Shown: piece after piece, positions 48,001 to 54,000 of the stretch
Layout: the number at the start of each line of letters is the position of its first letter
Numbering within the stretch: the first letter of the stretch is position 1
DNA from: Nitrospirota bacterium
GTDB lineage: Bacteria; Nitrospinota_A; UBA7883; JACRGQ01
DNA: 64,000 bases
NCBI GenBank assembly: GCA_024275955.1
Contig: JAJRYD010000005.1
Coordinates: 7,480 to 71,479, forward strand
Direction: 5' to 3'
Made by a program: the position numbers

Positions 48001-51000
48001 GATGGTGCTGAAAATACTGGTCGAAATCGGTATAAAGGAGGAAAATATTGACAACGCCAGTAACGGAAAATCTGGGCTACAAAAGCTGGAAGAGGGAAAA
48101 AGCTACGATGTAGTTCTTCTTGACTGGTCTATGCCCGGAATGACAGGAATAGAAATGCTTGGTGAAGTAAGGAAACACGAAAATTCTAAAATCTCCACTA
48201 CGCCTGTAATAATGGTTACCGCGGAAGCTCTTAAAGAAAATATAATCAAAGCCGCCAGAGTGGGTGCCAACGGATATATAACAAAACCGTTCACCGGCCA
48301 AAGACTTTTAGAAGTGCTGAACAAGGCTCTGTAGGTTTCGCGTATCTCTGCCGGTAGCTTTTATGAATAAGACCGTTTTTCTTTTTGCAGTACTCTCTTT
48401 TACCATCGCGTCTCCTTCTACTCAAGCTATAGCCAGCGAAAAAAGCGCGCGCCTGCGGTTTTTTATGACTGAAATTCACGCATATTACAGAGCTATCCAA
48501 GCCGGCATAAAAAACGGCGACTTCGATAAAGCAAAAAAAAGTGCCAACCGCGCCTACAGGTTCTTCGGCGAAATACCGGGCTTGATGCCGAAAACAAATA
48601 AGGACGGAACGCCGCTCAACAGGGAAATCTTTTTAAAAAGCATCAATACGTCAATGAAAACCATCGCCCAGCTAAAGGAAGCGCTGACGCAAAAAGATGT
48701 CAAAAGATCAGAGGAACTTTTGGGAGATATTTTTAAAAAATGCGCCAAGTGCCATAACAACATTTTAAAAACATCCAAAGCTAGTCAATCGCCTTAAATC
48801 TCAAGAGAGTTAGAGAAACTAGAAGGCATGGCAAAACAGATTGAACAAAGATGACAAAAGTTTCTAAACATAGGAACTCTATAGCTTTATGAATGAACCA
48901 ACATATCCTAAATGTAGTCACTATGTAGTCATTTTGGGATTTTCAAAGACCAGAAAATAAGCCTCAACTTATTGAAAAAATGGCTGCCCCCCAAGGATTC
49001 GAACCTCGACTAACTGAACCAGAATCAGCCGTCCTGCCATTAGACGAGGGGGCAACATTAAAATTGGATAGTCAGAATAGCTTTTTACAGGTTATCCTGC
49101 AACAGTTTTTGCCAAAAATTGCTCCGGCATACCATCAAAAGCTAAGCCCCCCCTTAAAATTCCGCCTATTAAAGGTTAGAATAACCGAGGTTACTTCTAT
49201 CAGAAAAGAAAAAGATACTACATAGATAATGCTATTATTAACCTCGTAACTTATTACTCATGAAAAGTAATTATGAGGCTGACGGAGGCTGATGCCAAGC
49301 TTTATAGATAAACTAAGCAACAGCGCTAAAAACCTGTCTGCTCTGGCTATCCTTCTCCCGCTTTTTGTCCTTAACAGCCTCGCCTTATGGTACTTCTCCC
49401 CCACCCCGTTTTACCCTGATGAGATGATGCACTACGCGTTAATCTCGCATATAGATAGATATGGCGGGACGCCGGCAGTAGGCGACAAAATAAAAAAACG
49501 AGAAAAAATTTTCCACATGAACTTCGGTTATGGAAACTATAAAACAGCAGATGGCGGCAAAGGGTTTGCCGAAGATATTACTAAAGAAGTAGCTAACGGC
49601 TGGAAAGAGTTAGATTCCCCCGTAGAGCAGATGACGGAGAAAGCCCCTACCTATTACATTGTCGGAGCATGGTTCAAAAAACTTGTTCTTGGCAACAGCA
49701 GTGATATCTTCACGGAGCTTGTTACGCTAAGGTTATACTCACTTATTTTATGGGCTTTCACCGTCTTTGCTATGGCTGGCATAATGCGCGAAGCATTTCC
49801 AGAGAACCGCCTCTACCAGATGCTCGGGCTTGGGCTTATAGGGTTTAACCCGCGCTTTACCGCCGCGGGGGTTTCTGTCAATTCCGACATGCTTGGAATA
49901 CTTATAATGACGCTTCTCCTCTGGAGGATGATGGTCTTGATAAGGTCGGACTCGCTTAAAACCTTTAACACTCTTTTGTGCTTTGCGCTTTCGCTTATAG
50001 CACTAATGGCCGAACCTCAAATGGTACTTGCTATACCGTACATGGTTCTTGCTGTGGTTATCGGCCATCACCGAAAATTCGACAAAAAAAAGATGGCGAT
50101 TCTTTTGGGAACTCTCTTTCTGCTTTTCATTGTAGAGGCTCTAGCCTATCACTATTTCTTTCGGCAGACGGGTGCCGGCAAGTCGATATTCGATATCGGC
50201 AGAAGATCTATTTTCGACCCTGAAATAATATATTTCTTCTACAGAACATTCTCCGATATTTTCATAATACCGTTTATCTCTGTCATAGATAAGGAACAGC
50301 CGTTCCAAGTATTCTTTCAATACTGGGCCTACGCTCTACCCGGAAGGGCCGAAGGGTACGCCGTAATCGACCAGATAAACCTTGTAGTCCTAAAAGTTTT
50401 CGTATGGACAGGAATGATAGGGATGACTCTCGCCGTAATAAAACAAAAAGTTACCCGCATAGAGCTATTTCTTATCACAATAGCAGTTTCATGGTGGCTA
50501 TGGATAAACCTTCTTACATGGATAGTCTCGGAAGCTCCGTACAGTTTTCTACAGGGACGGTTTTTCTTCCCCGTGATAGGAGCAACAATACCGGCCCTTA
50601 TAATAGGATGCTTCCACTTTATAAAAGAAAGAAGAGAACCGTTTGCCAAAGCGGGGCTATTGTTTATTATTTTCTATTTCGAATTTGAAACAATCAAAAC
50701 CGCATTATTGGCATTCAAATGAAAAAAATCTATCAAACAATTTTTATCGGGCTGTTGATCATTCCGTTTGTTCTTATGATTACCTCGAAAACAAAAGAGG
50801 TATACGGCACTGCGCTTTCTGCGCATTTTACGGTGGTAAAAGCCGAAAAACAGCTTTCCTCCAAAGCGGTAAAGAGCAAGGGCGCTAACGGGGTTTTAAT
50901 CTGCTGGAAAAATATTTTTGAAAGCGGACAACGTGTCGCCGGAATAACAATCAACGAAGCTTCCAAAAACCTTGTGTTGTCGGCACAACAGGTATCTGCC

Positions 51001-54000
51001 ATCCATACCTGCATGGAGGCACATACCGGAAAAATAGCCTACGAAACAAAAAAGAGATACGGGAAAAAGCCGAATTTTGAGCCGCTACCTGAGATAATCA
51101 AAATTACGGCATTCCCTGCCGATGGCAAGCAATTAGAAATAATGACAGACGAAGATGGCTACCTTAAAGTCTGGCTTTTAAAGGAAGAATGGTTTGGCGA
51201 ACGGTTTTTTTACCACCTTGCCCAGATAGTTGAAAGAGCTGGCCAGTACAAACCTGTTTCAAGCTTTTTTGGCTACATACTGTTATTCCTATGGCTGGCT
51301 GGAACTGTAGTGACAGCTTTTATTATAATAAGAGAAAAGCAGACGGAGCCTCTCTAGCATGAACTGGAAGAAAACTTTACGCCTAGCTTTAATATTGTCG
51401 CTCACTGTTTTTTTCGTCCACCGTTTCACTATGGATCTACATTTCTTTAGCGTTACGGAAAGGTTTGAAAGGCCGCAGCCGGTAAAGATACCAAAAGGGC
51501 TAACCGGCATAAGCGCGAAAGACTGCGGTACCTGCCACGAGGAGATTTACAACGAATGGAAAACGACAATTCACTCGCAGGCATGGACAGACCCCTATTT
51601 CCAAGTAGACTTTAAATACGACCGTTACCCGCAGATATGCCTTAACTGCCATACACCGCTTGAAAACCAGCAAGAGAACCTTGTTACAGGCTTTAGCGAC
51701 GAGGCGAAGTTCCGCCCAATCCTTGAGCCAAACCCTAACTTCGACCCAGAACTGAGAGACGAAGGGGTGACATGCGCCGTATGCCATATAAAGGACGGCG
51801 TTATAGTCGGCTCGTACGACATAGAAACAACAGCCCACCCAGTCCGCAAATACGAGCGGTTTTTGGACGGCAGAGGTATCTGTCAAAGGTGCCATATGGT
51901 ACCTAGCGTAAACAGGTGGGATTACTTTCTAAAACTTCCGCCGTGTGGAAATTTTGCGGAAATAGAAGCAGGAGGCAAAAAAGCCGACTGCGTTAAATGC
52001 CATATGCCGGAGGTAGAAAGGCCACTCGTGGAAGACGGCCCTGTGCGAAAAACAGGCAGGCACTTCTGGCGCGGCGGACACGACCCGAAGATGGTAAAAA
52101 AAGCGGCAGAGATAACACTGGCAGAAAACAGCTCCGCAAATAAAAAAACTTTTACGCTCCATATAAAGAACGCAGGCACGGAACACCGCTTCCCCACAGG
52201 AACTCCAGACCGTCACTTAAGAATACTATTCAGGCTTCTGGATGAAAAAGGAAACGTAATAAAAGAAAAGAAACGTTTTATAGAAAGAACAATTCTCTGG
52301 AGACCGTTTATAGCCGATATATACGATAACCGCATCCGATACCTAGAAACCGCTTCGTATTCGTTTAGCCTAAAGGCCGGAGAGGGCGCTTTCCTAGAAG
52401 CAGAGGTAAGGTACGGCCTGTTGCGTGAAAGCCGAAGAAGGCGCATAGGGTACGAAAACAGCGAGCCTATCCACTACCGTATCTTTTACAAAAAGGTTCC
52501 GCTTTAGCCGACACGCCCGCACAGCTTGACAGCTTTTTAGCTTCGCTGTTACTAACTAGCAGGCACCCCGATACCCTGCTTCGCACCCCTTTTCATAGTC
52601 GGCCTTAGCCTTACCCATCTCACCCATTATTTCGTTTGCCTGCCCGCGCACATAGTATGCCTCGCCCAGCTTTGGGTCAAGTTCTATCGCTTTATTGAGG
52701 TCTTTAAACGCGCCGTCGATATCTCCGGTATCTTTCTTCGCTTTTCCTCTAAGCGCGTATGCCGGAGCATACTTGGCATCTTCTATAATAGCCTTATTGG
52801 TAAGGTCGATAACTTTGGAATAGTTGGCGCTTCCATACGCGCCGCGCGCCTCTTGGACAAGACCTTTTACCTTCTTAGACGGACCACCGCCAAAAACGCC
52901 AAAATCAAAAGCCGAGGCTCCTGTAGCAAAAAAAGTAACGAGTGCCAGAAACAGTGTAAACGTTCTTATATTCATTTTATATCCTTTCAGCATCTTCAGT
53001 TACCCCTATAGTAAAGCAAATCTCCGCACGAACAAAACCTGTTATTCCAATCAGCCTTTGCCATCCACCTTTCATTAGCACAGGCTGTTTTAGTTTTTCA
53101 GCCTCTCCAGCATCTTGACTATCGCCTTTCGCTCATCTTTAGAAGGACTCAGTGACAAAGCCTTTCTGTACAGTTTTTCGGCCTCCAGCGGGCGGTTAAG
53201 GCTGGAAGCATACAGCCCAGCCAGATTAACCAGACCTAGAAAATAGTTTTCTTCTACGCTTATAGCCGCCTTGAATTCCTGCTCCGCTTCAAGCGCCATC
53301 CCCGCTTTTGCAAAAAACATCCCCTTTAGAAAATGCAGTTGGGAGGCGAACCAGCCGTCACTGTCGAGACGCTCGGTGTCTTCAAGCATCCGCAACCCCA
53401 TCTCTGCCTTGCCGCTTGCCACCGCAGAGGTAATCGCCGAAAGGTTAAGAGTTATATTTGCGTATCTAGCGTCTAGGTTGTCGCTGTTGACTTTAAGCGA
53501 GCGGTTGTAATAACCGGCGGCGCGTCCTTTCTTTCCGTTGCTTTTTTCTACCTGCCCCGCAAAGAAGATAGACTGCGATTCAAAATACCTCTTAAATATA
53601 TCTCTTTGCCTGTCCGATGCAAAGAGGCCGTCGGGAAATTTGCGGTAGCGCAGTAAACCAGCAAGGTTATCACCTTTCACCGCCACACCCTCATCGCCTA
53701 CACGCGGAGAGGTAAACTCTACAACCGGCCAATCGTCGTACAAAGGTTTTACGCCGTCTACAAACTTTTTAAGCTGTTCCTTATTCATCATATAATCGGA
53801 GACAAGCTGGTAAACATTGGTAACGCCTATCTCCTCTAGGCTCGCTTTTATCTCCGGCTTTTCCATTCTTTCGCGGATTCTTTCGACATCAATGCCGATT
53901 TTATCGTCAGAGCCTATCATTATCGCGTCCCACTTCGTGTACCACATATCGACATACCGGAACGACTCGAGAAACGCGGCGACCAGCATTTTAAAATCAA

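What the first reader, a model, noticed from the sequence alone, without database searches (positions are those of the whole stretch)
49292..52507. GT-C-like membrane protein in a three-gene operon with a pentaheme cytochrome c; paralog fused to a GT26 enzyme at 9932..11992
The 476-aa membrane protein shares PxxDExxH(F/Y) and VNSD(M/V)L(G/L)IL motifs with the C-terminal half of the GT26 fusion protein in the polysaccharide operon. Its own operon partners are a small bitopic membrane protein and a membrane-anchored cytochrome with five CXXCH motifs (overlaps ATGA and 1-nt gap). Pairing a putative glycosyl/lipid transferase with a multiheme cytochrome is unusual. It could indicate cytochrome glycosylation, or a redox role for the membrane protein rather than glycosyl transfer.
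Basis: partly seen in the sequence, partly recalled or inferred. Interest (0 to 1): 0.5.

Follow-up and report, generated by a model that had tools for sequence, protein, structure and literature searches.

The report
Glycosyltransferase pair beside an unrelated cytochrome
The three genes are real, but they are two separate units: a rare two-protein membrane sugar-transferase and a common five-heme cytochrome, found next to each other only in this genome, so the pairing is probably incidental.

Summary
Genes of 476, 212 and 382 aa lie at 49292..52507 with an ATGA overlap and a 1-nt gap. The cytochrome has five CXXCH motifs. The membrane protein shares its motifs with the C-terminal half of the GT26 fusion at 9932..11992.

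The cytochrome belongs to a very large family related to Thermochromatium tepidum pentaheme c552 (5ze8). Among 83 related cytochrome loci, none has the module nearby. Only one has any DUF2142-like gene, 6 kb away on the other strand. After the module, two homologous loci carry gatB or non-cytochrome DNA.

The refutation condition is half met: GT-C is confirmed, but adjacency is not conserved. I file it as a new member of a known kind, of low to moderate interest.

The parts
49292..50722 (+). 476-aa polytopic membrane protein: GT-C-fold glycosyltransferase of a divergent DUF2142-like subfamily
50719..51357 (+). 212-aa partner protein: N-terminal TM, a loop of about 150 aa predicted to be periplasmic with two invariant Cys, a QYKP motif and a C-terminal TM. 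Probable subunit of the GT-C enzyme.
   Evidence: It overlaps the upstream gene by ATGA. A homolog follows the GT-C gene with a 4-nt overlap in L084, L085 and L086/L087 (tblastn 1e-24 to 1e-32). Invariant residues include C62, W63, H96, C98, D146, G147, W152, K178 and P179. The C-terminal 49 residues align to the tail of one-piece DUF2142 proteins with hhalign score 37.1, P 4.9e-6, against at most 13.7 in 31 reversed or shuffled controls.
51359..52507 (+). 382-aa membrane-anchored pentaheme c-type cytochrome with a C-terminal beta-sandwich domain, related to T. tepidum c552 and the ExtKL-type family
   Evidence: Five CXXCH motifs are invariant in the family. There are 1476 homologs and at least 582 relatives in reference genomes. 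A profile search hits PDB 5ze8 at E 4e-18. Foldseek on the model finds 5ze8 at E 7.5e-17, TM 0.63.
9932..12025 (-). GT26 (WecG/TagA) plus DUF2142/PMT_2-like GT-C fusion, a distant paralog of the 476-aa protein. The likely start is the ATG at 11992.
   Evidence: Glyco_tran_WecG scores 193.7 bits and PMT_2 31.7 bits. BLASTP against the 476-aa protein gives E 2e-6. The cluster holds a Polysacc_synt flippase at 15029..16276 and an Asn_synthase at 11995..13899.
48981..49054 (-). tRNA-Gln(CTG), the upstream boundary of the three-gene unit
   Evidence: ARAGORN. The listed ORF 48980..49225 lies over this gene on the opposite strand.

Best explanation
The three genes make up two independent functional units that happen to be packed together in this genome.

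Unit 1 (49292..51357) is a two-subunit GT-C glycosyltransferase. The 476-aa protein is the catalytic polytopic subunit of a divergent DUF2142 clade. I infer that its Asp-Glu-x-x-His motif in the first loop faces the periplasm and that it uses a polyprenyl-phosphate-linked sugar or oligosaccharide to extend or decorate an envelope glycan. The 212-aa protein is its obligate partner. It supplies a loop domain, probably disulfide-bonded and probably periplasmic, and a final transmembrane helix that in one-piece relatives is the enzyme's own C-terminal tail. The arrangement resembles the lactococcal WpsI (DUF2142 polymerase) with WpsH (a two-TM, large-loop co-polymerase).

Unit 2 (51359..52507) is a membrane-anchored periplasmic pentaheme cytochrome of the widespread family related to T. 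tepidum c552 and ExtKL. It acts in periplasmic electron transfer.

Co-transcription of all three genes is likely here because the gap is 1 nt. It reflects compact gene packing, not a shared pathway.

Shown: the fold, family membership, partner conservation and lack of conserved adjacency. Inferred: the donor, the acceptor, the topology, the physical complex and the cytochrome's role.

For: Family: hhalign against DUF2142 members gives 99.9%. Of 21 aligned relatives, 14 hit DUF2142 and 10 hit PMT_2. Relatives occur fused to GT2 (P0150) or to GT26 (this window). Distant relatives sit in glycan clusters with GT2, GT10, GT11, an epimerase and a Wzx flippase.

Partner: a homolog follows the GT-C gene with a 4-nt overlap in all three independent homologous loci, at 24-31% identity. 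Its QYKP motif plus TM is homologous to the tail of 18 one-piece DUF2142 proteins.

WpsI/WpsH architecture as described in the literature: PMC9574508 and PMC12599335.

Cytochrome independence: 1476 homologs. Even the closest relatives (54-65% identity) have different upstream genes: panB, a peroxiredoxin, cobS. There is no homolog of the module in 83 loci. The cytochrome gene also sits 11 nt after panB in L001, so tight spacing with unrelated genes is normal for it. After the module comes gatB in L085 and non-cytochrome DNA in L087.
Against: The 1-nt gap with no intervening promoter or terminator signal makes co-transcription with the cytochrome likely, so a lineage-specific functional link cannot be excluded.

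The module has no glycan-synthesis genes beside it in the window (no GT2, flippase or sugar-nucleotide genes), so donor and acceptor are unknown.

The 476-aa protein itself is just under the PMT_2 gathering score and gives no direct DUF2142 hit.

Only three independent homologous loci exist, all short metagenomic contigs. In L084 only 85 nt remain after the partner gene.

The tail homology rests on 49 columns that include a hydrophobic helix.

Confidence: 0.68

Rival explanations
1. Lineage-specific functional coupling. The GT-C enzyme and its partner glycosylate the co-transcribed pentaheme cytochrome, as a PMT-like protein O-glycosylation, or attach it to an envelope glycan.
Confidence: 0.08
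2. The 476-aa protein is a non-catalytic GT-C-fold scaffold, like PIG-U/GAB1, or has a redox or cytochrome-maturation role rather than transferring sugars.
Confidence: 0.07
3. The module is a periplasmic polymerase and chain-length regulator for the same polysaccharide that the 9051..16276 cluster makes. That would make it a true WpsI/WpsH equivalent working in trans with the GT26-DUF2142 fusion and the Wzx flippase.
For: The same window holds a Wzx-type cluster with no recognisable Wzy, and it holds the paralogous GT-C. The partner has the two-TM, large-loop layout ascribed to WpsH and Wzz.
Against: The two loci are 37 kb apart. There is no co-occurrence data. I could not compare the 212-aa protein with WpsH or Wzz sequences. 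This is a refinement of the best explanation rather than a contradiction of it.
Confidence: 0.15

Closest known systems
Pfam DUF2142 (PF09913) and PMT_2 (PF13231) GT-C membrane glycosyltransferases, e.g. lactococcal WpsI and WpsJ
   Same: GT-C fold. A DExxH motif follows TM1. The FxPMF...VNxD and QGRYFFP motifs are shared. Profile-profile match is 99.9% over 429 columns. Relatives are fused to or adjacent to GT2 or GT26 enzymes and Wzx flippases.
   Different: The window protein itself misses the Pfam gathering thresholds. Its subfamily has only about 4 members among 1.8 billion representative proteins. It lacks the C-terminal QYKP tail, which sits on the partner protein instead. No glycan genes lie next to it.
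WpsH/Wzz-like co-polymerases (two TM helices and a large extracytoplasmic loop) paired with WpsI
   Same: The partner gene is adjacent to a DUF2142 GT-C gene and has the same predicted topology, with a TM at each end around a large loop.
   Different: I did not test sequence homology to WpsH or Wzz. The gene order and the Gram-negative-type context differ. Here the partner's last helix appears homologous to the enzyme's own tail in one-piece relatives, which has not been described for WpsH.
Thermochromatium tepidum pentaheme cytochrome c552 (PDB 5ze8) and the ExtKL / GSU2801 / cable-bacteria pentaheme cytochrome family
   Same: Five CXXCH hemes followed by an immunoglobulin-like beta-sandwich. 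Profile E 4e-18. Foldseek E 7.5e-17 with TM 0.63 over the whole length. The family is described in PMC11976967.
   Different: Only 19% identity to 5ze8. This family has an N-terminal membrane anchor. It has its own conserved HxxRGGH and PTGTPDRH motifs. The physiological partner is unknown.
Eukaryotic and actinobacterial protein O-mannosyltransferases (PMT) and ArnT
   Different: About 10% identity. There is no MIR or periplasmic C-terminal domain in the same chain. A profile search against PDB sequences gives no significant hit.

Membership tests
GT-C fold glycosyltransferase superfamily | Polytopic membrane fold with the conserved GT-C transmembrane module | tested here: met
GT-C fold glycosyltransferase superfamily | Conserved acidic residue(s) in the first extracytoplasmic loop after TM1 | tested here: met
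   P42-D43-E44-x-x-H47 follows TM1 (helix 17-35). D43, E44 and H47 are conserved in at least 90% of 69 aligned relatives.
GT-C fold glycosyltransferase superfamily | Uses a polyprenyl-phosphate-linked sugar donor at the outer face of the membrane | not testable with these tools
   This needs biochemistry. It is inferred only from family membership.
Pfam DUF2142 (PF09913) | Scores above the family's gathering threshold (30.1 bits) | tested here: not met
   The window protein gives no DUF2142 hit at E <= 0.1. Its 31%-identical homolog P0124 scores 54.5 bits, and 14 of 21 aligned relatives hit the family.
Pfam DUF2142 (PF09913) | Profile-level homology over the whole domain to proteins that pass the threshold | tested here: met
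   hhalign of the 4-member subfamily against 11 relatives, of which the six scanned pass the DUF2142 threshold, gives probability 99.9%, E 3.2e-37, over 429 columns.
Pfam PMT_2 (PF13231) | Scores above the gathering threshold (26.1 bits) | tested here: not met
   25.7 bits, E 1.5e-5, residues 143-281. It misses narrowly. The paralogous fusion passes with 31.7 bits.
WpsI/WpsH-type polymerase and co-polymerase pair | A DUF2142 GT-C gene adjacent to a gene for a protein with two TM helices and a large extracytoplasmic loop | tested here: met
   The architecture is read from the sequence and from the alignment of four partners. Adjacency is conserved in L084, L085 and L087. The description of WpsH and WpsI comes from PMC9574508 and PMC12599335.
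WpsI/WpsH-type polymerase and co-polymerase pair | Located in a polysaccharide cluster with an initiating transferase and a Wzx flippase | tested here: not met
   The neighbours are tRNA-Gln, a cytochrome c'-like gene, coaX, birA, a TPR gene and an MFS/spermidine synthase fusion. Only the paralog at 9932..12025 lies in such a cluster.
WpsI/WpsH-type polymerase and co-polymerase pair | Sequence homology of the partner to WpsH or Wzz | not tested
Pfam, NCBIfam and PDB searches of the 212-aa protein gave nothing significant.
Pentaheme cytochrome family (T. tepidum c552 / ExtKL-like) | Five CXXCH heme-binding motifs | tested here: met
   C56, C94, C139, C175 and C211 open the five CXXCH motifs, and all are invariant in 20 sequences.
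Pentaheme cytochrome family (T. tepidum c552 / ExtKL-like) | Whole-chain fold and sequence similarity to the solved member 5ze8 (heme domain plus beta-sandwich) | tested here: met
   hmmsearch E 4e-18. Foldseek E 7.5e-17, TMq and TMt 0.63. The model is only of moderate quality (pLDDT 70).
Pentaheme cytochrome family (T. tepidum c552 / ExtKL-like) | Covalently bound hemes and electron-transfer activity | not testable with these tools
   This needs heme staining, spectroscopy and redox titration.

The most novel reading that the evidence does not exclude
In this lineage the split GT-C enzyme was recruited to a cytochrome operon and modifies the membrane-anchored pentaheme cytochrome, by glycosylation or by tethering it to an envelope glycan. 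The c-type cytochromes seen near the module in two different organisms would then hint at a wider link between this rare GT-C subfamily and periplasmic cytochromes.
Probability: 0.06. Interest if true: 0.7.

Novelty: new member of a known kind. Interest (0 to 1): 0.25.

Why it matters
As posed, a link between a glycosyltransferase and a multiheme cytochrome would have pointed to cytochrome glycosylation or a new redox function for a GT-C fold. The evidence argues against that, so the locus should not be annotated or pursued as a redox-glycosylation system.

Three smaller points remain useful.
- The pair defines a very rare, deeply divergent DUF2142 subfamily that current Pfam and NCBIfam models miss.
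- The always-adjacent 212-aa protein seems to carry the enzyme's own terminal helix. This is a natural split that marks where the accessory periplasmic domain docks. It gives a testable model for how DUF2142 enzymes such as WpsI work with WpsH-like partners.
- The pentaheme cytochrome family is large and unnamed, and it has its own recurring neighbours elsewhere (see the items noticed in passing).

Tried and rejected
1. The word-indexed homology search found only the query itself for both the 476-aa and the 212-aa protein. The exhaustive HMMER scan was needed.
2. Looking up the window protein's own contig returned nothing on record. The cluster look-up gave no names or accessions, so the source organism stays unidentified.
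3. A profile of the GT-C family against PDB sequences gave no significant hit (ArnT at E 8.4). The fold comparison was needed instead.
The partner's fold and the complex are therefore untested. Profile searches of it against PDB and Pfam found nothing.
5. I considered whether the 287-aa protein after the GT26 fusion (9051..9914) is an equivalent tail-bearing partner, because its N-terminus reads DYKSFGILF. hhalign and hmmsearch gave no support (P 0.075), so I rejected the idea.
6. I considered whether the small cytochrome c'-like genes upstream of the module in the window and in L087 are a conserved third component. They are not detectably homologous (BLASTP E 0.07), and L084 has none, so I treat this as coincidence.
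7. The promoter and terminator scans of 48300..53200 were at the level expected by chance (8 against 6.3, and 6 against 6.0) and say nothing about operon structure.
8. The metagenome scan for more module loci returned only one contig, the full-length version of L086.
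Full report
**1. What is in the sequence**

Three co-directional ORFs occupy 49292..52507:
- a 476-aa polytopic membrane protein (49292..50722);
- a 212-aa protein (50719..51357);
- a 382-aa protein with five CXXCH motifs (51359..52507).

The first junction is an ATGA stop/start overlap. The second is TAG-c-ATG, a 1-nt gap, with a GGAG about 12 nt upstream. The unit is isolated on its strand. A tRNA-Gln(CTG) gene on the minus strand lies 237 nt upstream (48981..49054). 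A convergent TPR gene ends 48 nt downstream. Consensus promoter and terminator scans are at chance level. DEMMHY in the 476-aa protein corresponds to DEPNHF in the fusion, and VNSDMLGIL to VNSDVLLIL. BLASTP aligns the two proteins at 24% identity over 220 residues, E 2e-6. The fusion protein (9932..12025, likely start 11992) is Glyco_tran_WecG plus PMT_2. It lies with a Wzx-like flippase and an AsnB-like gene.

**2. The membrane protein is a GT-C enzyme of the DUF2142 clade**

On its own it scores 25.7 bits on PMT_2, against a cut-off of 26.1, and nothing else in Pfam or NCBIfam. A word-indexed search of 5.8 billion proteins finds only the protein itself. An exhaustive HMMER scan of 1.84 billion representatives finds two full-length homologs (34% and 31% identity), one fragment, and about 130 distant relatives.

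Of 21 aligned relatives, 14 hit DUF2142 and 10 hit PMT_2. A profile of the four close members matches a profile of DUF2142-passing proteins at 99.9% probability, E 3.2e-37, over 429 columns. Nearly invariant positions in 69 sequences are P37, D43, E44, H47, P119, Y122, R147, P187, D199, K241, G422 and R423. The D-E-x-x-H motif lies directly after the first transmembrane helix, where GT-C enzymes carry their catalytic acidic residues (established knowledge of the GT-C superfamily).

Relatives are fused to GT2 (P0150). Others sit in glycan clusters with an overlapping GT2 gene, GT10, GT11, an epimerase, a Wzx flippase and GT4. A role in glycan transfer is therefore well supported by homology. 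The donor and acceptor are inferred only.

**3. The true conserved partner is the 212-aa protein**

This protein is also an orphan by word search. Even so, in every locus that encodes a close homolog of the 476-aa protein, a homolog of the 212-aa protein follows with a 4-nt overlap. The loci are L084, L085 and L086, whose longer version is L087. The tblastn E-values run from 1e-24 to 1e-32. These contigs differ in their neighbouring genes, and the pairs are only 24-34% identical, so the pairing is old.

The four partners share:
- an N-terminal hydrophobic helix;
- a loop of about 150 residues with two invariant cysteines (C62, C98) and invariant W63, H96, D146, G147 and W152;
- an invariant K-P within a (Q)YKP motif;
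- a C-terminal hydrophobic helix.

Eighteen longer, one-piece DUF2142 relatives end in '...SYYD...(Q)ASQYKPWFLKG' followed by a last helix. The 476-aa subfamily stops just before this tail. A profile-profile comparison aligns the last 49 residues of the partner to that tail. The score is 37.1 (P 4.9e-6), against a maximum of 13.7 in one reversed and 30 column-shuffled controls. A plain HMM of the tail ranks three of the four partners in the top 15 of 4007 ORFs.

I read this as a split enzyme. The partner carries the terminal helix of the enzyme plus an inserted domain that is probably periplasmic. This inference is moderately supported. I could not model the partner or the complex.

The layout is the one described for lactococcal WpsI, a DUF2142 GT-C polymerase that uses C55-P-oligosaccharide. 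WpsI works with WpsH, which has two TM helices and a large outer loop and is thought to be a Wzz-like co-polymerase (PMC9574508; PMC12599335). I did not test homology to WpsH.

**4. The cytochrome is an independent, widespread gene**

It has 1476 homologs at about 45-65% identity. More than 580 relatives occur in reference genomes of Nitrospinota, Nitrospirota, Thermodesulfobacteriota, Gallionellaceae, Sedimenticola, Magnetococcales and others. All five CXXCH motifs are invariant, as are further histidines (H160, H235, H241, H276) and the motifs HxxRGGH and PTGTPDRH.

A family profile hits the solved pentaheme cytochrome c552 of Thermochromatium tepidum (5ze8) at E 4e-18. A moderate-quality model (pLDDT 70) matches 5ze8 over its whole length (E 7.5e-17, TM 0.63). 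That protein has been grouped with Geobacter ExtKL and GSU2801 and with cable-bacteria pentaheme cytochromes (PMC11976967).

**5. The adjacency is not conserved in either direction**

In 83 loci around cytochrome relatives, with up to 8 kb on each side, tblastn finds no homolog of the 476-aa protein, the 212-aa protein or the GT26 fusion. HMMs of the GT-C family find one ORF, in L007, 6.2 kb away on the other strand. The partner HMM finds none.

The closest cytochrome relatives have unrelated upstream genes: panB at an 11-nt gap in L001, a peroxiredoxin in L002 and cobS in L004. Tight packing with unrelated genes is therefore usual for this gene.

From the module side, the gene after the partner is gatB in L085. 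In L087 it is 744 nt with no cytochrome similarity. In L084 only 85 nt remain, so that locus is undetermined.

The GT-C arm is not met, because the protein is GT-C. The synteny arm is met.

**6. Mechanism and rivals**

Best explanation (confidence about 0.68): there are two units. The first is a split DUF2142-type GT-C glycosyltransferase that acts on an envelope glycan at the periplasmic face. The second is an unrelated membrane-anchored periplasmic pentaheme electron carrier. They are probably co-transcribed here by compaction.

Rivals:
- Lineage-specific glycosylation or tethering of the cytochrome (about 0.08). It is kept alive only by the 1-nt gap and the PMT-like fold.
- A non-catalytic or redox role for the GT-C fold (about 0.07). 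The conserved catalytic-type residues and the absence of any redox motif contradict it.
- A refinement in which the module works in trans with the Wzx cluster at 9-16 kb (about 0.15).

**7. Novelty and score**

The pairing that motivated the finding is most likely incidental. What is left is a rare, deeply divergent member of a known enzyme family with a conserved, apparently split-off partner, next to a member of a large but poorly named cytochrome family. I file it as a new member of a known kind. Interest is 0.25.

Noticed in passing
Loci L014, L020, L024, L029, L037, L048, L051, L052, L057, L063, L071, L072, L075 and others (relatives of window 51359..52507): A TVP38/DedA-type membrane protein with a C-terminal rhodanese domain recurs beside the cytochrome, mostly in loci from Proteobacteria. 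It lies directly upstream on the same strand in 13 of 83 loci and within 3 kb in 22. In L020 it is fused to the cytochrome (634 aa). Other genes recur nearby: an ArsR-rhodanese regulator (22 loci), a pyridine-nucleotide disulfide oxidoreductase (15), a fatty-acid hydroxylase (13), an RND/MMPL transporter (9) and ArsM-like methyltransferases. This hints at a sulfur, selenium or metalloid redox role for this unnamed cytochrome family.
   Followed up: partly
window 48363..48797 (+); L087 6430..6894 (+): A small protein that looks secreted, with a single C-terminal CXXCH and a weak cytochrome c' (PF01322) match (21.0 and 26.4 bits), lies upstream of the GT-C module in both the window and L087. The two are not detectably similar to each other (BLASTP E 0.07), so this is probably coincidence.
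   Followed up: partly
window 48981..49054 (-): A tRNA-Gln(CTG) gene sits immediately upstream of the three-gene unit. The listed ORF 48980..49225 lies over it on the opposite strand. A tRNA next to a rare two-gene module could mark an insertion point. I did not examine this.
   Followed up: no
window 53090..55978 (-): A 962-aa fusion of an MFS-like membrane domain, a spermidine-synthase-like domain and C-terminal TPR repeats (NF037959, fused MFS/spermidine synthase, 113.9 bits). It is followed by two Vgb-lyase-like beta-propeller proteins (55975..58334) and a cytochrome b gene (59030..59752).
   Followed up: no
window 9051..9914 (-) and 13824..15032 (-): Two proteins in the polysaccharide cluster, of 287 aa (membrane) and 402 aa, have no Pfam or NCBIfam match. 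The 287-aa protein follows the GT26-GT-C fusion by 17 nt but shows no similarity to the 212-aa partner or to the QYKP tail.
   Followed up: partly
L088/L089/L090 (6001..7587 and 9307..10869): A distant one-piece relative (P0128) lies in a fucosyltransferase-rich glycan cluster with GT11, GT10, an overlapping GT2, an epimerase and a Wzx flippase. The cluster contains a second PMT_2-type GT-C gene, so two GT-C paralogs per glycan cluster, as in this window's genome, may be common.
   Followed up: no
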